Origin: Chiloscyllium plagiosum
Lineage: Eukaryota
Direction: 5' to 3'
Length of the DNA: 52,152 bases
Assembly (NCBI RefSeq): GCF_004010195.1
Contig: NC_057718.1
Coordinates: forward strand, 94,248,209-94,300,360
Below the pieces are notes generated by a model. It saw only the letters and a list, made by a program, of their open reading frames with translations. It was not told the DNA's origin and ran no database searches. Every line of letters begins with the position of its first letter. Within the stretch, counting starts at the first letter, position 1. This document shows positions 8,177-52,152 of the stretch, piece by piece. The position numbers and the translations under genes are program-made.

Positions 8177-9352
8177 AAATAGAACATAGAACAATACAGC
8201 ACAGAACAGGCCCTTCGGCCCACGATGTTGTGCCGAACATTTGTCCGAGCTTAAGCACCCATCCATGTACCTATCCAATTGCCACTTAAAGTTCGTCAAT
8301 GATTCTGACTCTGCCACTCCCACAGGCAGCACTTTCCATGCCCCCACCACTCTCTGGGTAAAGAACCTACCCCTGACATCTCCCCTATACCTTCCACCCT
8401 TCACCTTAAATTTATGTCCCCTTGTAACACTCTGTTGTACCCGGGGAAAAAGTTTCTGACTGTCTACTCTACCTATTCCTCTGATCATCTTATAAAGCTC
8501 TATCAAGTCNNNNNNNNNNNNNNNNNNNNNNNNNNNNNNNNNNNNNNNNNNNNNNNNNNNNNNNNNNNNNNNNNNNNNNNNNNNNNNNNNNNNNNNNNNN
8601 NNNNNNNNNNNNNNNNNNNNNNNNNNNNNNNNNNNNNNNNNNNNNNNNNNNNNNNNNNNNNNNNNNNNNNNNNNNNNNNNNNNNNNNNNNNNNNNNNNNN
8701 NNNNNNNNNNNNNNNNNNNNNNNNNNNNNNNNNNNNNNNNNNNNNNNNNNNNNNNNNNNNNNNNNNNNNNNNNNNNNNNNNNNCCTCTGTTCCTCCACCT
8801 TACTAAGAACCCTACCGTTAACCCTGTATTCTGCATTCTTATTTGTCTTTCCAAAATGGACAACTTCACACTTGGCAGGGTTGAACTCCATCTGCAACTC
8901 CTCAGCCAAGCTGTGCATCATATCTAAGTCCATTTGCAGCCGATATCTGCCCTCCTCGCTATCCACAACTCCACCAATCTTCGTATCTTCTGCAAATTTA
9001 CTGACCCACCCTTCGGCTCCCTCATCCAAGTCATTAATAAAAATTACGAACAGCAGAGGACCCAGAATTGATCCTGCGGAACTCCACTTGTAACTGGGCT
9101 CCAGGCTGAATATTTACCATCTACCACCACTCTCTGACTTCGACCGGTTAGCCAGTTTTCTATCCAACTGGCCACATTTCCCACTATCCCATGCCGCCTG
9201 ACTTTCCGCATAAGCCTACCATGGGGAACCTTATCAAATGCCTTACTAAAATCCATGTATACTACATCCACTGCTTTACCCTCATCCACATGCTTGGTCA
9301 CCTCCTCAAAGAATTCAATAAGACTTGTAAGGCAAGACCTACCCTTCACAAA
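8177..9352 (-). mobile_element. CR1 LINE ORF2 (RT) to 3' end, spanning an assembly gap
   Basis: FVKGRSCLTSLIEFF, VDVVYMDFSKAFDKVPHGRL, SGVPQ, KFAEDTKIGG and MEFNPAKCEVVHFG motifs; (TTCTATG)n tail at ~8177-8195. Confidence 0.95.
8510..8783. other. Assembly gap (274 N)
   Basis: Run of N. Confidence 1.
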
Positions 9353-15980: not shown

Positions 15981-16480
15981 NNNNNNNNNNNNNNNNNNNN
16001 NNNNNNNNNNNNNNNNNNNNNNNNNNNNNNNNNNNNNNNNNNNNNNNNNNNNNNNNNNNNNNNNNNNNNNNNNNNNNNNNNNNNNNNNNNNNNNNNNNNN
16101 NNNNNNNNNNNNNNNNNNNNNNNNNNNNNNNNNNNNNNNNNNNNNNNNNNNNNNNNNNNNNNNNNNNNNNNNNNNNNNNNNNNNNNNNNNNNNNNNNNNN
16201 NNNNNNNNNNNNNNNNNNNNNNNNNNNNNNNNNNNNNNNNNNNNNNNNNNNNNNNNNNNNNNNNNNNNNNNNNNNNNNNNNNNNNNNNNNNNNNNNNNNN
16301 NNNNNNNNNNNNNNNNNNNNNNNNNNNNNNNNNNNNNNNNNNNNNNNNNNNNNNNNNNNNNNNNNNNNNNNNNNNNNNNNNNNNNNNNNNNNNNNNNNNN
16401 NNNNNNNNNNNNNNNNNNNNNNNNNNNNNNNNNNNNNNNNNNNNNNNNNNNNNNNNNNNNNNNNNNNNNNNNNNNNNNNN
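15981..16480. other. Assembly gap (500 N)
   Basis: Run of N. Confidence 1.
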
Positions 16481-33344: not shown

Positions 33345-33666
33345 GGGGTGGCACGGTGGCTCAGTGGTTAGCACTGCTATCTCACAGCACCAGGAACCTG
33401 GGTTCAATTCCCACCTTGGGCAACTGTCTGTGTGGATTTGCACATTCTCCCTGTGTCTGTGTGAGTTCCCTCTGTGTGCTCCAGTTTCCTCCCACAATTG
33501 AAAGATGTGCTGGTTAGGTGAATTGGCCATGCTAAATTTCCCATTGTGTTAGGCACATTAGTCAGGGGTAGAGGGATGGGTCTGGGTAGGTTACTCTTCA
33601 GAGGCTCAGTGTGCACTTGTTGGGCCGAAGGGCCTGTTTCCATACTGTAGGGATTCTAATCTAATT
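33345..33666 (+). mobile_element. HE1-type V-SINE
   Basis: GGCACGGTGGCTCAGTGGTTAGCACTGC, B-box GGTTCAATTCC, tail TTGGGCCGAAGGGCCTGTTTCC. Confidence 0.92.
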
Positions 33667-35061
33667 CTCGGAGGAGCTGCACAACCAATCAATGGTAATG
33701 GTAGGGGATTTTAACTTTCCAAACATAGATTGGGACTCTCATGGTGTTAAGGGATTGGATGGGGAAAGAGCTTATTCAGTGTGTACAAGAACATTTTCTT
33801 ATTCAATATGTGGATGTAGCTACTAGAGAAGGAGCAATATTTGACCTTCTGTTAGGATATAAGGCACAGCAAGGGGCTGAGGTGCCAGTGGGGGAGCACA
33901 TTGGGACCAGTGATCATAATTCTATTAGTATGAAAATAGTTATGGCAAAGGATAGAACTGATCAAAAAGTTCTAAATTGAAGTAAGGCCAATTTTGAAGT
34001 TGATTGTGGGTGGCATGGTGGCATAGTGGTTAGCACTGCTGCCTCACAGCGCCAGAGACCCCGGTTCAATTCCCGCCTCAGGCGACCGACTGTTTCGACT
34101 TTGCACATTCTTCCCGTGTCTGCGTGGGTTTCCTTCGGGTGTTCCGGTTTCCTCCCACAGTCCAAAAATGTGCAGGTCAGGTGAATTGGCCATGCTAAAT
34201 TGCCTGTAGTGTTAGGCGAAGGGGTAAATGTAGGGGAATGGGTCTGGGTGGGTTGAGCTTCGGCGGGTTGGTGTGGACTTGTTGGGCCGAAGGGCCTGTT
34301 TCCACACTGTAAGTAATCTAAAAAAAATGGGTAGAGGGATGGGTCTGGGTAGGTTACTCTTCAGAGGCTCAGTGTGGACTTGTTGGGCCGAAGGGCCTGT
34401 TTCCATACTGTAGGGATTCTAATCTAATTCTTGGAGGAGCTGCACAACCAATCAATGGTAATGGTAAGGGATTTTAATTTTCCAAACATAGATTGGGACT
34501 CTCATGGTGTTTCGGGATTGGATGGGGAAAGAGCTTATTCAGTGTGTACAAGAACATTTTCTTATTCAATATGTGGATGTAGCTACTAGAGAAGGAGCAA
34601 TATTTGACCTTCTGTTAGGATATAAGGCACGGCAAGGGGCTGAGGTGCCAGTGGGGGAGCACATTGGGACCAGTAATCATAATTCTATTAGTATGAAAAT
34701 AGTTATGGAAAAGGATAGAACTGATCAAAAAGTTCTAAATTGAAGTAAGGCCAATTTTGAAGTTGATTGTGGGCGGCATGGTGGCATAGTGGTTAGCACT
34801 GCTGCCTCACAGCGCCAGAGACCCGGGTTCAATTCCCGCCTCAGGCGACCGACTGTGTGGACTTTGCACATTCTTCCCGTGTCTGCGTGGGTTTCCTTCG
34901 GGTGCTCCAGTTTCCTCCCACAGTCCAAAAATGTGCAGGTCAGGTGAATTGGCCACGCTAAATTGCCTGTAGTGTTAGGCGAAGGGGTAAATGTAGGGGA
35001 ATGGGTCTGGGTGGGTTGCGCTTCGGCGGGTCGGTGTGGACTTGTTGGGCCGAAGGGCCTG
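33566..35061. repeat. 763-bp-period tandem duplication (SINE tail + CR1 endonuclease piece + HE1 SINE)
   Basis: 33566 repeats at 34329. ORFs 33741/34504 and 33962/34725 are offset by exactly 763, with scattered substitutions. Confidence 0.95.
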
Positions 35062-37110
35062 GTTGGGAAATGGGAGGCCTTTAAGAATGAGAAAATGAGA
35101 GTTCAAAGCCAGTTCCTGTTGGTGTGAAGGGCCAGGCTAGTAGATGTGGGGAATGCTGGATGACTACCGAAGTTGAAGCTCTGGTCAAGAAAAAGGAGGC
35201 ATTTATTAGGTGTAGACAGGTGGGTGAGTGAATCCCGAGAAGAGTATTAGCAAATAGGGGTATACTCAAGGGGGAAAATCAGGAGGGCTAAAAGGGACAT
35301 GAGGTAGCTTTGGCAAATACAGTTAAGAAGAATCCAAATTGATTCTATAAATACATTAAGGGCAAAAGAGTAATTGGGGAGAGGATATGTGGAACCACAG
35401 GAGATGGCTGAGATATTAAACAAATACTTTGCATCTATATTTACTGTGGAGAAGGACATGGAAGCTCGGAAACTTGGAAAAATAAATAATGATGCCTTCA
35501 AAGCAATTCATGTTACAGAAGAGGGGGTGCTGGAGACCTAAAAACACATAAACGTCGATAAATCCCCAAGACCTGACCAGGTGTTTCCCGGAACTTTGTG
35601 GGAAGCTAGGGAAATGATTGCTGGGCCCTTTGCTGAGATATTTGTGTCATCAACAGCCACGAGTGAGGTGTTGGAAGACTGGAGATTGGCTAATGTGACA
35701 CCATTACTTATGAAAGACTGTAAGGAAAAGCCAGGGAAATATAGACTGTTGAGACTTATGGCAGTGGTGGGTGGGTTGTTGAGAGGATTTTGAGGGGCAG
35801 GATTTGCATGCATTTGGAAAGGCAAAAAATGATTAGGGATAATCATCATGGTTTTGTGCGTGGGAACTCGTGTCTCACTAACTTGATTGAGTTTTTCAAA
35901 GAGTTGACCAAGACCAAGTTGATGAAAGCAGAGTGGTAAATGTTGCCTATATGGACTTCAGCAAAGCGTAAAACAAGATTCTGCATAATAGACTGGTTAG
36001 TAAGGTTAGATCACATGGGATCTGGGGAAATGAACTAATTGGATACAAAATCAGCTTGAAGGTAGGAGATGGAGAATGTTAGTGGTGGGTGGTTTTTCAG
36101 ACTGGAGGCTGCGACCTGCGGTGTGCCACAAGGATCAGTGCTGGGTCTACTGCCTTTCGTCATTTATATAAATGATTTGGATGTGAGTATAGGAGGTATG
36201 GTTAGTGAGCTTTCAGATGACACCAAAATTGATTGTGTGGTGGACAGTGAAGAAATTTATCACAGAGAACAATGGGCCCTCGATTAAGATGAGCCAGTGG
36301 ACTGTGGAGTAGCAGATGGAGTTTAATTTAGATAGATGTGAGGTGCTGTATTTTGGTCAGGCAAACCAGGGCAGGAGACATACAGTTAATGGTAAGGCCT
36401 GGGGAGTGTTACCAGACATAGACCTAAGGTGGACGTGTTTCACTCCTTGAAAATGGAGTTGCAGATAAACAGGGTGGTGAAGAAGGCGTTTGGCATGTTT
36501 GCCTTCACTGGTCGTAACATTGAATAGACGAGTTAGGAGGTCTATTTTGAGACTATATAGAACATTAGTGAGGCCACTGTTGGAATACTGTGAACAATTC
36601 TGCTCACCCTTCTGTAGTAAAGATGTTGCTAAACTTGAGAGGGTACAGAAAAGATTTACAAGGATATTGCTGGAACTGGAGGGTTTGAGCTATAAGGAGA
36701 GGCTAAGTAGGCTGGGGCTTTTTAATCCTCCAGTGTCAGAGGCTGAGGGGTGACCCTATAGAGGTTTAAAAGTCATGGAGAAATGGATAGGGTAAATAGC
36801 CTGGGTCTTTTTCCTCGGGTGAGGAGTCCAAAATTAGAAGGCAAAGGTTTAAAGTGAGATACAAAAAGGACCTGAGGGATAACTTTCTCACGCAGAGGGT
36901 GGTGCGTGTATGGAATGAGCTGTCAGAGGAAGTGGTGGAGGCTGGTACAATTACAACATTTAAAAGGCATCTGGATAGGTATATGAATAGGAAGGGTTTA
37001 GAGGGATACAGGCTTAATGCTGGCTAATGGGACTAGGTCAGATTGGGATAGCATGGACAAGTTGGACCAAAGGATCTGTTTCCATGCTATAAGACTCAAT
37101 GATGTTTTGA
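33670..37110 (+). mobile_element. Long decayed CR1 ORF2 (endonuclease, RT, 3' end), interrupted by SINEs and the duplication
   Basis: VGDFNFPNIDW, TREGAIFDLLL, SDHN; EDWRLANVTPL; GVPQGSVLG...YINDLD...SDDTKI; LVRPLLEYC...LERVQKRFTR; 3' tail at ~37060-37110. Confidence 0.92.
34008..34327 (+). mobile_element. HE1-type V-SINE (duplicated, truncated copy at 34771-35061)
   Basis: Full tRNA head, V core and CR1-like tail ending GTAAGTAATCTA. Confidence 0.92.
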
Positions 37111-40890: not shown

Positions 40891-43537
40891 TCCAACCTAT
40901 GTCATTAAAAATAACAATCTTCTGATTGATTCTCCCATCCTATATAATCTCCAGCGTTTGAGTATTTCCTCAATACTCCCTAGCCTGCAAAGGAGAGCTC
41001 AAAAACATTTATTAACTCCCATATATTAAACAAATGTATTTATTCCTTAATAAATCTTGTCCCAGTTGCTTAGTGATGTGAAACATCAGAAAACCTGAGC
41101 ACTGTCTCAGGGCATTAATCGCGGGCAGAGATAAGTACTTTACGGCATATATTTGCATGTAACAATTAATAACCAGTGGAGATGTATTTGGAAGTTCTAA
41201 AAGGTTTGTATGAAATTGTGTGCATGACATATTTATTTTCCTTCTGCCGTAGTGCCACCCTGAGATTTCCATTATGTTATCAGACAACGTTTAGTACTTT
41301 TACAGCTTGACAACTCATTCACTCCTCACCCGAGACAATGGTAGGTTAGTCCAAATGCATTTATTTCTTTCACTATGCAACAACAGAAGAAGAGGAAACT
41401 CTCTCTAATGACAGCTCCAAGAGATTTTAAGAGACACAAAGACATTGACTGCTCCATTAGTCACTAAGACTCTGCTACTTAGGACTTAACATATTGGGAA
41501 ATAATTTCCATTTAGTAAGGTTTGGGCAGAGTTGGAATATTCTTTCCTGGAAATAATTTCTTGCAATTATCCATTTACCAGAATTTGAGCAATATACCTT
41601 CATAAATATGTAGCCATTTCCTTTTATTAAAATCACATATAACTTCCTCCCATTTGTTTTTCTTTAATGAACTAGCTTTCAATGCCTACAATTTTACTAT
41701 TGTAACAGCAAAGTCCAGTCACAAGACAATGAAAGCCAAATGTTGCAAAAGCTCATAAAAGGAACATAGGAAATTAGGGCCCGGTATATTCCAGGGTCTG
41801 GAGCTCTATGAGGTGCTTGGGTCGAGGGCAGGGCCTCTATGCTGGGAGTGGGGCCTCGTGCGAGGAGTGGGGCCTCTGTTCTAGGTGTGGGGCCTCTGTG
41901 CTAGGAGTGGGGCCCTGTGCTGGGAGTGGGGCCTCTGTGTGAGGAGTGGGGCCTCTGTTCTAGGAGTGGGGCCTCTGTGCTAGGAGTGGGGCCTCTGTGC
42001 TAGGAGTGGTGCCCTGTGCTGGGAGTGGGGCCTCTGTGCGAGGAGTGGGGCCTCTGTGCAAGGAGTAGGACTTCTGTGCTAGGAGTAGGGCCTCTGTGCA
42101 AGGAATGGGTCCCTGTGCAAGGAGTGGGGCCTCTGTGCGAGGAGTGGGGCCTCTGTTCTAGGAGTGGGGCCCTGTGCTGGGAGTGGGGCCTCGGTACTCG
42201 GAATAGGGCCTCTGTGCTAGAAGTGGGGCCCCTGTGCTGGGAGTGGGGTCTCTGTGCTGGGAGTGGGGACGCTGTGCAAGGAGTGAGACCTGTGTGCGAG
42301 GAGGGGGGACTCTGTGCGAGGAGTGGGACACCTGTGCTGTAAGTGGTGCCTCTGTGCTAGGAGTGGGGTCTCTGTGCTGGGAGTGGGGACTCTGTGCTGG
42401 GAGTGGGGCCTTTGTGTGGGAGTGGGGTCCCTGTGCTGGGAGTGGGGCCTCTGTGCTGGGAGTTGGGCCTCAGTGCTGAGAGTGGGTCCCTGTGCAAGGA
42501 GTGGGGCCTCTGTTCTAGGAGTGGGGCCCTGTGCTGGGAGTGGGGCCTCTATGCTCGGAATAGGGCCTCTGTGCTAGATGTGGGGACCCTGTGCTTGGAT
42601 TGGGGTCTGTGTGCTGAGAGTGGGGCCTCTGTGCGAGGAGTGGGGCCTCTGCGCTGGGAGTGGGGCCTCAGTGCTGGAAGTGGGGGTCCCTGTGCTGGGA
42701 GTGGGGCCTCTGTTCTAGGAGTGGGGGCCTGTGCTGGGAGTGGGGCCCTGTGTGGGGAGTGGGGCCTCTGTGTGAGGAGTAGGGCCTCTGTGCGAGGAGT
42801 GAGGCCTGTGTGTGAGGAGTGGGGACTCTGTGCAAGGAGTTGGGCATCTGTGCTAGGTGTGGGGCCTCAGTGCTGGGAGTGGGGGTCCCTGTACTGGGAG
42901 TGGGGCCTCTGTTCTAGGAGTGGGTCCTCATGCTGGGAGTGGGGCCTCTGTGCAAGGAGTGGGTCCCTGTGCGAGGAGTGGGGCCTGTGCTGGGGATGGG
43001 GCCTCTGTGCTTGGAATAGGGCCTCTGTGCTAGATGTGGGGCCCCTGTGCTGGGGGTGGGGTCTGTGTGCTGGGAGTGGGGACTCTCTGCGAGGAGTGGG
43101 GCCTCTGTGCTGGGAGTGGAGCCTCTGTGCGAGGAGTGAGGCCTGTGTGCGAGGAGTGGGGACTCTAGGTGAGGAGTGGGGCCCCTGTACTGGGAGTGAT
43201 GCCTCTGTGCCTGGAGTGGGGTCTCTGTGCTGTGAGTGGGGACTGCGTGCGAGGAGTGGGACCTCTGTGCTGGGAGTGGTGCCTCTGTGCAAGAAGTGGG
43301 GTCTCTGTGCTGGGAGTAGGGCCTCTGTGCTGGGAGTGGGGCCTCTGTGATGGGAGTGGGGTCCCTGTGCTGGGAATGGGGCCTGTGTGCTGGGAATGTG
43401 GACCCTGGGTGAGGAGTGGGGACTCTGTGCTGGGAGTGGGGCCTGTGTGCGAGGAGTGGGGACCCTATACTGGGCCTCTGTGTGAGGAATGTTGCCTCTG
43501 TGCTGGGAGGGGTGCATCGGTGCGAGGAGTGATTTGT

Positions 43538-43847
43538 GGGCAGCACGGTGGCACAGTGGTTAGCACTGCTGCCTCACAGCGCCAGAGACCCGGGTTCAAT
43601 TCCCGCTTCAGGCGACTGACTGTGTGGAGTTTGCACATTCTCCCCGTGTCTGTGTGGGTTTCCTCCAGGTGCTCTGGCTTCCTCCCACAGTCCAAAGATA
43701 TGCAGGTCAGGTGAATTGGCCATGCTAAATTGCCCATAGTGTTAGGTAAGGGGTAGATGTATGGATGGGTTGCCCTTCGGCGGGGCGGTGTGGACTTGTT
43801 GGGCCGAAGGGCCTGTTCCAACACTGTAAGTAATCTAATCTAATCTA
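43538..43847 (+). mobile_element. HE1-type V-SINE in minisatellite, copy 1
   Basis: Full-length head, core and tail, ending (TAATC)n. Confidence 0.95.
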
Positions 43848-44728
43848 GAGTGGGGAACCTGGGCTGTGCTTCTGGTTGAGGAGTGGTGCCTCTGTGCGAG
43901 GAGTGGGGACTCTGTGCGAGGAGTGGGGCCCCCGTGCTGGGCTTCTGTGTGAGGAGTGGGGCCTCTGTGCGAGGAGTGGGGACTCTGTGCTAGGAGGGGG
44001 GCCCCTGTGCTGGGCCTCAGTGCTGGGAATGGGGCCTCAGTGCTGGAGGTGGGGGTCCCTGTGCTGGGAGTGGGGCCTCTGTTCCAGGAGTGGGGGCCTG
44101 TGCTGGGAGTGGGGCCTCTGTGCAAGGAGTGAAGCCTGTGTGTGAGGAGTGGGGACTCTGTGCGAGGAATGGGGCCTCTGTGCTGGGAGTGGGGACTCTG
44201 TGCTGGGAGAGGTGCCTCTGTGGTGGGAGTGGGGCCTCAGTACTGGGAATGGGGCCTCTGTGCTAGGAGTGGGGCCTCAGTGCTGGGAGTGGGGTTTCTG
44301 TTGTAGGAGTCGGGCCTCATGCTGGGAGTGGGGCCCTGTGCTGGGAGTGATGCCTCTGTGCCTGGAGTGGGGTCTCTGTGCTGTGAGTGGGGACTGCGTG
44401 CGAGGAGTGGGACCTCTGTGCTGGGAGTGGTGCCTCTGTGCTAGGAGTGGGGTCTCTGTGCTGGGAGTGGGGCCTCTGGGCTGGGAGTGGTGCCTCTGTG
44501 CTGGGAGTGGTGCCTCTTTGATGGGAGTGGGGCCTGTGTGCTGGGAGTGGGGTCCCTGTGCTGGGAGTGGGGCCTGTGTGCTGGGAATGGGGACCCTGGG
44601 TGAGGAGTGGGGACTCTGTGCTGTGAGTGGGGCCTGTGTGCGAGGAGTGGGGACCCTGTACTGGGCCTCTGTGTGAGGAATGGTGCCTCTGTGCTGGGAG
44701 GGGTGCATCGGTGCGAGGAGTGATTTGT

Positions 44729-45036
44729 GGGCAGCACGGTGGCACAGTGTTAGCACTGCTGCCTCACAGCGCCAGAGACCCGGGTTCAATACCCGCTTCA
44801 GGCGACTGACTGTGTGGAGTTTGCACATTCTCCCCGTGTCTGTGTGGGTTTCCTCCAGGTGCTCCGGTTTCCTCCCCCAGTCCAAAGATGTGCAGGTCAG
44901 GTGAATTGGCCATGCTAAATTGCCCATAGTGTTAGGTAAGGGGTAGATGTATGGATGGGTTGCCCTTCGGCGGGGCGGTGTGGACTTGTTGGGCCGAAGG
45001 CCTGTTCCAACACTGTAAGTAATCTAATCTAATCTA
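44729..45036 (+). mobile_element. HE1-type V-SINE in minisatellite, copy 2
   Basis: Near-identical to copy 1, with the same flanks. Confidence 0.95.
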
Positions 45037-45598
45037 GAGTGGGGCCCCCGTGCTGGGCTTCTGGGTGAGGAGTGGTGCCTCTGTGCGAGGAGTGGTGCCT
45101 CTGTGCGAGGAGTGGGGCCTCAGTGCTGGGAGTGGGGTTTCTGTTGTAGGAGTGGGGCCTCATGCAGGGAGTGGGGCCCTGTGCTGGGAGTGATGCCTCT
45201 GTGCCTGGAGTGGGGTCTCTGTGCTGTGAGTGGGGACTGTGTGCGAGGAGTGGACCTCTGTGCTGGGAGTGGTGCCTCTGTGCTAGGAGTGGGGTCTCTG
45301 TGCTGGGAGTGGGGCCTGTGTGCTGGGAGTGGTGCCTCTGTGATTCTGTGCTGGGAGTGGGGCCTGTGTGCTGGGAGTGGTGCCTCTGTGATGGGAGTGG
45401 GGCCTGTGTGCTGGGAGTGGGGTCCCTGTGCTGGGAATGGGGCCTGTGTGCTGGGAATGGGGACCCTGGGTGAGGAGTGGGGACTCTGTGCTGGGAGTGG
45501 GGCCTGTGTGCGAGGAGTGGGGACCCTGTACTGGGCCTCTGTGTGAGGAATGGTGCCTCTGTGCTGGGAGGGGTGCATCGGTGCGAGGAGTGATTTGT

Positions 45599-45907
45599 GG
45601 GCAGCATGGTGGCACAGTGTTAGCACTGCTGCCTCACAGCGCCAGAGACCCGGGTTCAATTCCCGCTTCAGGCGACTGACTGTGTGGAGTTTGCACATTC
45701 TCCCCGTGTCTGTGTAGGTTTCCTCCAGGTGCTCCGGTTTCCTCCCCCAGTCCAAAGATGTGCAGGTCAGGTGAATTGGCCATGCTAAATTGCCCATAGT
45801 GTTAGGTAAGGGGTAGATGTATGGATGGGTTGCCCTTCGGCGGGGCGGTGTGGACTTGTTGGGCCGAAGGGCCTGTTCCAACACTGTAAGTAATCTAATC
45901 TAATCTA
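45599..45907 (+). mobile_element. HE1-type V-SINE in minisatellite, copy 3
   Basis: Near-identical to copy 2, with the same flanks. Confidence 0.95.
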
Positions 45908-49226: not shown

Positions 49227-51164
49227 CAAAGAATAAATACAAAATGTTACTTAAATACCAAGTTGGAAGGAAGACATTTCTAAGATGAAAAGCTTAAATA
49301 GCATAGATTAAGACTTTAATCGAATCTCATGCATCAGATTTAAAGTCACAATGCCAATTGAACTTCCCCAAGTCCATTAATACTTTAGCAATGGTTGATT
49401 CATAAGAAAGGTTATTAATGCAGACATCTGTCTCAATCACACAGGCAGATGCATACAAAGGCTAAATATAGTGAAGTAACAGTGCCCAAACCTTAATCAT
49501 TTCCATCACATAACTATTGTTTTAAAAATCTCAGTTAAACTCAATCAGCAAGTTAAATGATCAAACAATAAAACCACTGGGCTTCATCAAATCTGTATTA
49601 GAAGTGATGAATTTAGATTATTTTGTGTACATTTTGTGCTGGAGGAGTTAGCAAGCTGCGTGAATTGTGATATTCAACAAAGTGACCATTCCAAGACTTG
49701 GTCACATTTGAATCCCAGAGCTAGTCGCTACATTTGATTCTGCTGAGTATTAGAGGTGGAGCTTAGTGCAATGCTTTGAATAGGTCACTGAAATAGGTCT
49801 ATTGTCACTGAAGAACAATTCCAGGGACACAGTCAGTTAGAGTTAGAAGATGGATAGAGGCAGAAGCTGACTCCATGCAGACATGTTAAGCCATACGTGC
49901 CTCATGTTATGTTTGGGATGTTAGAATATAAGTTATTATATCGCTGCACAGTCCAAACTTTTACTTTGTCAATACTCATGGCATGTCTCTATGAGTAAGT
50001 TTTGTTTTGTAATAGATTAATTATTCTTTGTTAATAAAGGAAATTGGATTGATTTGTTTCTGAAACTCAACCAGGCATAGCCTGAGACTTCAATAATTGA
50101 CCATACCATCAAAATGGTTCAATGGAATGTTTGTTATGACCAGTGGAGGAGAGAGACTAGAAAGGAATCAGAGCACCTCTTTAACCTCAGTCAGGACATA
50201 GGCAGTAAATGGTGGTAAAAAAATGAAGGAATGAGATCCTCCTGAGTTGAATTTCATACAGACCAACAGCAAACAGGGATTAAATATTTACTCAGAAATA
50301 TGGTTGCTTGCACAGTTTGAGGGAAATGGGCCAACTGCCTGAAAAGGAAGATTGTTTAATCCTTTATTCCCTTAAAAACCAAAATGAGGCTTAGGTTTCT
50401 TTTGTCTAAGGATTTATTCCTACATGCATGGAGATGGACCTATCAAAGATGGCACACAACTCTCCAGTTTACTACAAACAATGGTTTTATACTACTTTTT
50501 ACAGATAATAGTTTTCCATTAAAAACATTCGATATTTCTCTTATTATCTCTTTCCAATATCCATTAGACTCTATATTCCACGTTAGCACATGTGATTATA
50601 TTATCCAATCATATTCAAATTTGTACGTATGGTTACAATATCTAATCAAATTGTTACATGCTCACATGATTATAATATCCAGTCAAATCATTACACCTTC
50701 ACAAGTATTGACTATAAGTATGTACTTTATGATTATTATCTGTTATCATATCATTTAAAGTTGTGTGATGATGAAATGACTTTGGGAAATTTAGGTGTGA
50801 TATGTATATTTTTCGTGAGTGAGGATTGAAATGTGGAATTATATCATTGGTAGAGTTTGGAGATTAAAAAACTGCAAATGGCAGATTTCCTCCCCTCAAG
50901 GATTTAGTGTTTCAAAAATAATTGATGATGGGTTCTGGTCCCCGTTACTGAGAGAGTATATCAATTCCACGTTTTATAAGCAATTAAATGGATTTAATTT
51001 CCAACAGTTTCCAAATGTTTTGAACCTATGCCCCCAAAGCATTAACAAGGCTTCTGCATCACTAACCCAGTAACATTGGCACTGTGCCTTCATGACAGTT
51101 TAAAGTTGCACTAGCTGGATGGTGATTCCAATTTTCCTGAAGAAAGAGGCAAAAGAAGCTACAG

Positions 51165-51898
51165 GGACATAGTTATGCCAGAGAACAGAAGTAGCTGGGT
51201 AACAGTTAGAGATGGGAAGGGGAGGAAGCAGGCAGTGCAGGGATCCCCTGTGGTTGTTCCCCTCAACAATAAGTATACCGCTTTGGATACTGATGGGGGG
51301 GACGGCCTAGCAGGAGTAAGCTGCAGTGACCGGGTCTCTGGCACGAGGTCCGGCTCTGAGGCCCAGAAGAGAAAGGGGGAGAGGTGGAGAGCGCTAGTTA
51401 TAGGAGACTCTATAGTTAGAGGGACAGACAGGCGGATCTGTGGACATGGGCGAGATTCTCGGATGGTTTGTTGCCTCCCTGGTGCCAGGGTCCGAGTCGT
51501 CTCGGACCGTGTCTTCAGAATCCTTAAGGGGGGAGGGTGTGCAGCCAGAAGTTGTGGTGCACATTGGCACCAACGACATAGGTAGGAAGAGGGGTGGGGA
51601 GGTCATTCAGGAGCTCAGGGAGTTAGCCTGGAAGCTAAAAGCTAGGACGGACAGAGTCGTCATCTCTGGGTTGTTGCCGGTGCCACGTGACAGTGAGGCA
51701 AGGAATAGGGAGAGAGTGTAGTTGAACACATGGCTGCAAGGATGGTCTAGGAGGGAGGGCTTCAGGTATTTGGACAATTGGACTGCAGTCTGGGGAAGGT
51801 GGGACCTGTACTAGCAGGACAGGTTGCACCTGAACCAGAAGGGCACCAATATCCTGGGAGGTAGGTTTGCTAGCACTCTTCGGGGGGATTTAAACTAA
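51165..51898 (+). pseudogene. CR1 ORF1 with SGNH/GDSL esterase domain (one frameshift, two premature stops)
   Basis: VPLNNKYTAL; LVIGDSIVRG; CLPGARV; VVVHIGTND; DRLHLN; ends ...LRGDLN* (TAA 51896-51898). Confidence 0.92.
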
Positions 51899-52152
51899 TT
51901 TGGCAGGGGGATGGGATCCGGACTTGTAGTCCAGCAAGTAGGCTAGCTGTTTGTCAGGATGTCCAAGAATGTAGGGAGGCTGTGGGGAAGGTAGCACTGA
52001 CAGGGAATACTTGCGGACACAGAGATGGGTTCAAGTGTGTATACTTCAACGCAAGGAGTATCAGAAATAAGGTGGGTGAACTTAAGGCGTGGATCGGTAC
52101 TTGGGACTACGATGTTGTGGCCATCACAGAAACGTGGATAGAAGAGGGACAG
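51874..52152 (+). mobile_element. Start of CR1 ORF2 (AP-like endonuclease), running off the window end
   Basis: Open frame ...FKCVYFNARSIRNKVGELKAWIGTWDYDVVAITETW, the N and E motifs of LINE endonucleases. Confidence 0.92.

What the first reader, a model, noticed from the sequence alone, without database searches (positions are those of the whole stretch)
51871..52152. Candidate -1 programmed ribosomal frameshift joining ORF1 and ORF2 of a CR1 LINE
Seen: ORF1 ends GAT TTA AAC TAA, so the heptamer T_TTA_AAC (51889-51895) is in X_XXY_YYZ phase immediately before the stop. ORF2 is in the -1 frame (TTT AAA CTA ATT TGG...). It opens after a TAG at 51871-51873 and overlaps ORF1 by 25 nt including the stop. 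It has no in-frame ATG up to and through the first endonuclease motifs (FNARS, ITETW). Downstream there is a small hairpin GGACT-TGT-AGTCC (51920-51932) and possible G-U-rich pairing of TGGCAGG with TTTGTCA. Established: UUUAAAC is the coronavirus slippery site, and -1 frameshifting is typical of retroviral/LTR gag-pol, whereas L1 ORF2 uses termination/re-initiation. Inference: this CR1 family may express an esterase-ORF1/EN-RT fusion by frameshifting. I cannot confirm whether this has been reported for CR1. This copy is decayed, so a lost ATG is an alternative.
Basis: partly seen in the sequence, partly recalled or inferred. Interest (0 to 1): 0.7.

Follow-up and report, generated by a model that had tools for sequence, protein, structure and literature searches.

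The report
Slippery frameshift site in CR1 LINEs
A widespread group of animal jumping genes keeps a virus-style "slippery" seven-letter site where its first gene meets its second, start-less gene, so the copying enzyme is most likely made when ribosomes slip back one base, a route not established for these elements.

Summary
Observation confirmed: T_TTA_AAC (51889-95) then TAA ends an esterase-type ORF1; the endonuclease frame is -1, overlaps by 25 nt and has no ATG. The copy is decayed, but decay does not explain this: thousands of contigs from three organisms show no change at the site and no new in-frame ATG at the 5% level. Loci retrieved with an upstream ORF1 motif fall into 10 families, mostly 37-61% identical; 8 carry a canonical in-phase heptamer, in three forms (U_UUA_AAC, A_AAA_AAC, G_GGU_UUU), one is near-canonical, one has none. 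Linkers of 27-89 codons keep the -1 frame; three families have the stop 31-34 nt beyond the heptamer. The proposed hairpins are not supported; instead AGGGGG lies 10 nt downstream in all five U_UUA_AAC representatives. Best reading: programmed -1 frameshifting giving an esterase-EN-RT fusion (about 0.8; inferred, no translation data). One shark-type family has an in-frame Met. No paper on CR1 frameshifting found in ten searches, but the original CR1 papers were not available; Dictyostelium TRE elements are said to frameshift. This scan noted the same site before in another shark genome.

The parts
51154..51898 (+). ORF1 remnant (5'-truncated), SGNH esterase type; broken by a frame change near 51524-51537 and by TAG at 51719-51721 and 51812-51814
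   Evidence: tblastn of intact relative P0002 covers residues 48-294 at 79-80% in two frames; the stop at 51812 is private to this copy (T>A in over 99% of depth in three runs); closest solved structure ZfL2-1 ORF1 esterase 4C1B, E=8e-50 for alignment A3
51862..51873 (+). Two stops (TAG 51862-64, TAG 51871-73) that close the -1 frame upstream, so ORF2 cannot start further inside ORF1 in this family
   Evidence: no variant at 5% or more in these codons' three positions listed (51859 A>G lies just before)
51886..51892 (+). Second, tandem heptamer G_GGT_TTA present in the majority allele of the family (51888 = G), not in this copy
   Evidence: 51888 A>G in 98%, 97% and 79% of depth in X1, X2, X4; phase read
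51889..51895 (+). Slippery heptamer T_TTA_AAC (Leu-Asn, last two ORF1 codons); predicted -1 shift site
   Evidence: no variant at 5% or more at 51889-51919; same heptamer in L020, L048 family, L039, L041
51896..51898 (+). ORF1 stop TAA directly after the heptamer
   Evidence: TAG in the other U_UUA_AAC families
51905..51910 (+). AGGGGG run 10 nt after the heptamer; candidate 3' stimulatory element without local structure
   Evidence: at +10 in 5 of 5 U_UUA_AAC representatives and +9 in L035; 3 occurrences in 10,650 nt of downstream sequence
51874..52152 (+). ORF2 5' end in the -1 frame: ATG-less linker, then APE endonuclease start (YFNARS from 52042, ITETW from 52123); cut by the window end
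   Evidence: 63% identical to P0202, a 998-aa EN-RT product
51920..51932 (+).

Best explanation
The window ends in a dead, 5'-truncated copy of a shark-type, esterase-ORF1 CR1-like LINE. In the active family most ribosomes translate ORF1 and stop; a fraction slip back one base on U_UUA_AAC (tRNA-Leu and tRNA-Asn in P and A sites), miss the stop, cross a variable linker and make an esterase-ORF1/endonuclease/RT fusion at a set low ratio to ORF1p, as in retroviral gag-pol. Shown: sequence, phase, conservation, exchange among three heptamers, open ATG-less -1 linker. Inferred: that ribosomes shift there, that a fusion protein results, and what stimulates it (no local RNA structure; a G-run at +10 is the candidate in the U_UUA_AAC families).
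For: (1) 27 of 28 aligned ORF1 proteins end Leu-Asn-stop, 28 of 28 end Asn; of 127 proteins with a catalytic DxxH anchor among 176, 74 end LN and 8 GN although the tail runs 22-39 residues; LN-ending proteins include ones labelled shark, ray, eel, sturgeon, frog, turtle, lizard, snake. (2) DNA found with a motif upstream of the junction: 23 of 27 rows (26 loci plus the window) have a canonical in-phase heptamer; 8 of 10 families. Background: 8 in 3229 upstream ORF1 codon positions. (3) Three different heptamers at the same place, all among the four that PMC5009743 lists as most shift-prone on mammalian ribosomes. (4) In the A_AAA_AAC families the stop lies 31-34 nt and in L037 13 nt past the heptamer, so the heptamer is not just stop context. 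(5) 9 of 11 representatives run open in -1 from heptamer to the EN Asn motif over 27-89 codons with no Met. (6) L048 is an intact copy: ORF1 365 aa, ORF2 968 codons in -1, first ATG inside the EN domain. (7) In the window's family no variant at 5% or more touches 51889-51919, no indel reaches 5%, none makes an in-frame ATG.
Against: No translation data of any kind. No canonical 3' stem or pseudoknot: local folds have z from -1.4 to +2.3 in 10 representatives, and no shared long-range partner was found; a bare heptamer gives only low shifting. L022 has no canonical heptamer and L035 only G_AAT_TTT. P0196/P0211 (shark-type ORF2) carry a Met upstream of the EN start. Families share ancestry, so they are not independent draws. 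Within-family invariance is weak alone: only 29 of 453 positions vary at 5%. Junction DNA of amniote and of GN-ending families was not seen.
Confidence: 0.8

Rival explanations
1. Termination followed by AUG-independent re-initiation (L1-like) or stop-start coupling (SART1-like): ORF2p is a separate protein begun at a near-cognate codon in the linker.
For: This is the accepted route for L1 and SART1 (PMC2881922; PMC3894237). Every linker holds some near-cognate codon. The stop is adjacent to the heptamer in most families; P0196/P0211 have a Met.
Against: No near-cognate codon sits at a shared position; no UAAUG overlap in the ORF2 frame; it predicts neither a heptamer, nor a fixed -1 phase, nor an open frame back to the heptamer; heptamer and stop are uncoupled in four families.
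Confidence: 0.1
2. Splicing: the conserved AG|GGGGG is a 3' splice site and a subgenomic RNA brings ORF2 in frame with an upstream start.
For: NAG|G at a fixed place in six representatives.
Against: No pyrimidine tract before it in L020 or L039; absent from the A_AAA_AAC families; does not explain the heptamer; no joint ending there, but those were contigs of probable DNA runs and the one RNA run had no reads on the stretch, so this is not a test.
Confidence: 0.04
3. Transcriptional slippage by RNA polymerase II adds a base in some transcripts and fuses the frames without ribosomal shifting.
For: Runs of 6 A or 6 T in L025, L029, L034, L037.
Against: TTTAAAC has no run longer than three; a LINE copies its RNA back into DNA, so slipped copies should be common, yet no indel reaches 5% in three runs.
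Confidence: 0.03
4. Leu-Asn-stop is kept for the esterase protein, and the heptamer and phase are inherited by-products.
For: Leu-Asn is conserved at protein level.
Against: TTA is 16-50% of Leu codons and AAC 40-69% of Asn codons in these families, yet all five use T_TTA_AAC; other families encode Lys-Asn or Gly-Phe there; in a low-confidence model (mean pLDDT 58) the last helix ends at 288 of 294; the solved ZfL2-1 esterase aligns only to profile position 308 of 312.
Confidence: 0.03

Closest known systems
Canonical -1 programmed ribosomal frameshifting (retroviral and LTR gag-pol, coronavirus 1a/1b)
   Same: X_XXY_YYZ heptamer in phase near the end of the first ORF; second ORF in -1, AUG-less, encoding the polymerase; the heptamers seen are among the most shift-prone listed in PMC5009743 (passages).
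   Different: Host is a non-LTR element; no stem-loop or pseudoknot found 5-9 nt downstream; no protease domain found in the products scanned.
Dictyostelium TRE5-A / TRE3-A (APE-type non-LTR elements)
   Same: A figure legend in PMC5911963 states that both require a -1 frameshift for ORF2 (passage; primary papers not seen).
   Different: Other lineage, other ORF1, ORF2 with zinc finger; the legend gives no slippery site or assay.
PRRSV nsp2 -2/-1 frameshift (protein-stimulated)
   Same: No downstream structure; a short conserved run about 10 nt after the shift site, with 9-11 nt spacer optimum (PMC4937337 passages).
   Different: There the motif is C-rich and bound by nsp1beta and PCBP; here it is G-rich and no binding factor is known.
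L1 ORF2 re-initiation and SART1 UAAUG coupling
   Same: Bicistronic LINE RNA, ORF2 dependent on ORF1 translation and made at low level (PMC2881922, PMC3894237).
   Different: Those give a free ORF2p with an AUG; here no AUG and an overlapping -1 frame.
Zebrafish ZfL2-1 ORF1 esterase (PDB 4C1B; PMC3905857)
   Same: Same SGNH esterase ORF1 class, E=8e-50.
   Different: Its ORF1/ORF2 junction DNA was not examined; passages found no mention of frameshifting.

Membership tests
Canonical -1 PRF signal | X_XXY_YYZ heptamer in the phase of the upstream ORF | tested here: met
Canonical -1 PRF signal | Downstream ORF in -1, open from the heptamer | tested here: met
   9 of 11 representatives; L048 open for 968 codons
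Canonical -1 PRF signal | Heptamer conserved beyond protein constraint | tested here: met
   fixed codon choice in five representatives, exchange among three heptamers
Canonical -1 PRF signal | 3' stem-loop or pseudoknot 5-9 nt downstream | tested here: not met
   MFE z-scores near zero, no Rfam match; no dedicated pseudoknot prediction was run, but L020 and L037 have almost no pairing potential (-1.7 and -0.2 kcal/mol over 60 nt)
Canonical -1 PRF signal | Measured frameshifting / trans-frame product | not testable with these tools
   needs reporter, ribosome profiling or mass spectrometry
Protein-stimulated PRF (arterivirus type) | Conserved unstructured motif about 10 nt downstream | tested here: met
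   AGGGGG at +10 in 5 of 5 U_UUA_AAC representatives, +9 in L035, absent in 5 others
Protein-stimulated PRF (arterivirus type) | Trans-acting protein required | not testable with these tools
   none
APE-type two-ORF LINE with esterase ORF1 | SGNH esterase ORF1 followed by APE + RT ORF2 | tested here: met
   window: esterase and EN start; relatives P0002, P0202, L048 pass Pfam cut-offs
CR1 clade (versus L2 and other CR1-group clades) | RT groups with reference CR1 elements in a tree | not tested
CR1 clade (versus L2 and other CR1-group clades) | 3' terminal short tandem repeat | tested here: inconclusive
   not in the window; the 3' end of L048 was printed but shows no clear repeat array
SART1-type stop-start coupling | AUG overlapping or next to the ORF1 stop in the ORF2 frame | tested here: not met

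The most novel reading that the evidence does not exclude
Esterase-bearing CR1-group LINEs across vertebrates and other animals make their reverse transcriptase only as an ORF1-ORF2 fusion by an ancient -1 frameshift whose stimulator is not an RNA structure but a G-run 10 nt downstream, read by a host G-tract-binding protein or by ORF1p itself (feedback), the first protein-stimulated frameshift in a transposon.
Probability: 0.3. Interest if true: 0.88.

Novelty: new variant of a known kind. Interest (0 to 1): 0.7.

Why it matters
How LINEs translate ORF2 is called an open question in a review devoted to it, which lists re-initiation, IRES and 2A but no frameshifting (PMC3894237, parts 1-2 of 3 read). 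If true, a major animal LINE group uses the retroviral solution instead, its RT carries an esterase and coiled-coil at its N-terminus (which would tie RT to the ORF1p particle), and ORF2 starts annotated at the first Met or GTG are wrong and cut off catalytic endonuclease residues. The cassette is under 100 nt and can be tested with one reporter experiment; a structure-free stimulator would add a rare class of frameshift signal.

Tried and rejected
No whole genome held; no second junction in the window. Viral contigs gave no usable relative (one search gave 18 loci that were not analysed and were taken to be chance hits); plasmids and phages no match. Broad alignments were too diverse for the search for related loci. 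No RNA holder listed and RNA run X22 had no reads on the stretch: no test of expression or splicing. Long-range partner of the G-run: none shared among families. Rfam: nothing. 'Lost ATG in a decayed copy' rejected. The first Met of P0195 is a gene caller's start at a Val codon (longer members read V there). AlphaFold model was low in confidence and is used only as a weak hint. Three bacterial SGNH loci (L026, L028, L032) were dropped before counting. Junction DNA for turtles, squamates, frogs and the GN-ending families was not obtained, so those rest on protein ends only. Kapitonov and Jurka 2003 not held; Haas 1997/2001, Kajikawa 1997 and Kojima 2005 were not read.

Full report
1. Observation. 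ORF1 ends GAT TTA AAC TAA: heptamer T_TTA_AAC at 51889-51895, stop at 51896-51898. The -1 frame opens after TAG 51871-51873, overlaps ORF1 by 25 nt and stays open to the window end, through the endonuclease motifs YFNARS and ITETW. Five ATGs follow the stop, none in that frame. The copy is dead: an intact relative (P0002) aligns at 79-80% from its residue 48, with a frame change near 51524-51537 and two internal stops. TTTAAAC occurs 17 times in the window, so a single occurrence means little. No other copy of the junction is in the window and no genome is held.

2. The family of this copy. Contigs of three public runs from three organisms were laid on 51700-52152 at 85% likeness: 5714, 4453 and 8442 contigs. 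Changes at 5% or more occur at 29 positions; none at 51889-51919, none in the two upstream -1-frame stops, no indel, and by my reading of the codons none makes an in-frame ATG. The stop at 51812 is private to this copy. So the missing ATG is a property of the family, not decay. This invariance is weak evidence of selection by itself, since most positions are invariant at that level. In most copies 51888 is G, which puts a second canonical heptamer, G_GGT_TTA, one codon upstream. The fourth run (RNA, raw reads, about 6% read) had no reads on the stretch and tests nothing.

3. Proteins. All 27 longer homologs and the query end in Asn, 27 of the 28 in Leu-Asn; named ones are from sharks and rays, which is the basis for calling the element shark-type. 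In a wider search, 127 of 176 proteins held a catalytic DxxH anchor; 74 of them end LN, 85 end N, 8 end GN, and LN-ending tails run 22 to 39 residues; the other 42 end otherwise and 49 had no anchor. The query itself ends in LN, a small bias in ranking. LN-ending members carry source labels for eel, sturgeon (flagged as unverified contaminant), frog, turtles, tortoise, tegu and snake. GN would fit G_GGA_AAC, but I saw no DNA for those.

4. DNA of distant families. A motif wholly upstream of the junction found 18 metagenome and 11 genome-collection loci; the latter look like animal DNA inside bacterial bins, host not determined. Three bacterial SGNH genes were dropped. Of the 26 others plus the window, 23 of 27 have a canonical in-phase heptamer at the ORF1 end. 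The four misses: L027 (premature stop; the junction reads T_TTA_AAT), L030 (indel at the site), L035 (G_AAT_TTT, one mismatch) and L022 (none; its ORF2 is broken). At 70% identity they form 10 families (the clustering gave 11 groups; I merged L024 into the L048 family by its junction), pairwise 37-61% identical, near the floor for aligned DNA. Eight have a canonical site: U_UUA_AAC (window, L020, L048 family with L039, L041), A_AAA_AAC (L025/L036, L029, L034), G_GGU_UUU followed by U_UUU_UUA (L037). Background is 8 in 3229 upstream ORF1 codon positions (copies of one family are counted repeatedly), or under about 5% per family for the 6-19 codons searched (my arithmetic). The families share ancestry, so the fair statement is three distinct heptamers at one position. 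[quoted passage not shown] In the A_AAA_AAC families ORF1 continues 31-34 nt past the heptamer. In 9 of 11 representatives the -1 frame runs from heptamer to the endonuclease Asn over 27-89 codons, 425 codons in all with no Met, against about 6 expected from the Met rate of these elements (72 in 5261 codons; my arithmetic; linkers may simply be Met-poor). L039 ends too early and L022 is broken. L048 is an intact copy, ORF1 365 aa and ORF2 968 codons, with esterase, APE and RT domains above Pfam cut-offs and its first ATG inside the endonuclease; in L036, L035, L037 and L034 the first ATG is 425 to 1205 nt past the stop. In genome G001, 13 of 14 contigs of that family with a readable end have T_TTA_AAC TAG and one T_TTA_AAG; 8 of 29 loci had no anchor and one is another element. 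Several decayed copies have the endonuclease in frame 0 or +1 through private indels (L023, L024, L033, L038, L047). Shark-type ORF2 products P0202/P0204/P0206 read through the same Phe-Lys-Leu in the -1 frame with a shorter linker.

5. Against. P0196 and P0211, from another shark-type family, have a genuine internal Met upstream of the endonuclease, so AUG absence is not universal; and in P0202-type copies the -1 frame extends upstream into ORF1 to a called start that may be ATG or GTG. Neither is conserved in the window's family. There is no translation evidence.

6. What is conserved downstream. AGGGGG begins 10 nt after the heptamer in all five U_UUA_AAC representatives and 9 nt after it in L035, where it falls in different codons; it occurs 3 times in 10,650 nt of downstream sequence and is absent from the other five representatives. 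Two proteins that run past the usual stop (P0147 after GN, P0148 after LN) show Arg-Gly three residues later, which fits the same run (inference). The spacing matches the PRRSV protein-stimulated signal (PMC4937337) and the minority class of stimulators at the edge of the mRNA entry channel described in PMC5009743. That a protein binds it is a guess.

7. Mechanism. Most likely (0.8): tandem -1 slippage gives a minor esterase-ORF1/EN/RT fusion. Rivals: AUG-independent re-initiation (0.1), splicing at the conserved AG (0.04), polymerase slippage (0.03), by-product of protein constraint (0.03). It works like a gag-pol frameshift; it fails one defining feature of the canonical signal (3' structure), so I do not file it as canonical.

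8. Literature. Ten full-text searches gave no paper reporting a slippery site or frameshift for CR1. Seen as passages: PMC5009743 (first 300,000 of 449,034 characters; CR1 0 hits; LINE ORF2 discussed as unusual initiation; HeT-A frameshift), PMC3905857, PMC2881922, PMC10275272, PMC1925062, PMC5405496 (Paramecium elements, +1 shift or readthrough suggested), PMC11835228, PMC5911963 (TRE5-A/TRE3-A need a -1 frameshift), PMC4937337; PMC3894237 parts 1-2 of 3. The CR1 clade label was not tested by an RT tree. Earlier notes of this scan report the same site in another shark genome (e1-8041403) and a G_GAA_AAC junction (e1-7350016); these are unchecked and not independent, and they supplied the TRE5-A lead, which I checked.

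9. Verdict. Real feature, strongly suggestive of programmed -1 frameshifting, experimentally unproven; new variant of a known kind; interest 0.7.

Noticed in passing
window 33346-35064 and 43534-45904: Several diverged copies of a 300-700 bp unit, partly tandem (33566-34301 matches 34329-35064 at 97%); parts match the EN region of P0202 and lead into a long decayed ORF2 remnant at 35103-37006.
   Followed up: no
window 3-49187: About 35 tblastn pieces of CR1-like ORF2, mostly 3' ends, on both strands; N gaps at 8510-8783 and 15981-16480.
   Followed up: no
L076 (G001:C694) around 1612, minus strand: An esterase-like DGLHL motif is followed, after a frame break, by a Cys/His-rich knuckle-like stretch: possibly an ORF1 type with esterase then zinc knuckles, without the heptamer.
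   Followed up: no
L038-L048, L049-L077 (G001), L039, L041; protein P0002: Young animal LINE copies sit in bacterial genome bins and an ORF1 is deposited as a Pseudomonas aeruginosa SGNH hydrolase: host DNA contamination of public bacterial records.
   Followed up: partly
L025 and L029, 16-28 nt after A_AAA_AAC: C-rich runs (CCCTCC, CCTCCTCC) where other families have the G-run; absent in L034. Reminiscent of the PRRSV C-rich motif but further away.
   Followed up: no
window about 430 nt before the heptamer; L020 and L021 at -426 to -456: One of the best duplex partners of the G-run region lies in the conserved CLPG coding stretch of ORF1 in three representatives; may only reflect Pro codons.
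   Followed up: no
proteins P0097 and P0128: ORF1 esterase ending in LN annotated as the C-terminus of longer host gene models (980 aa frog protein; turtle 'shisa-4 isoform X1'): exonised element or annotation artefact.
   Followed up: no
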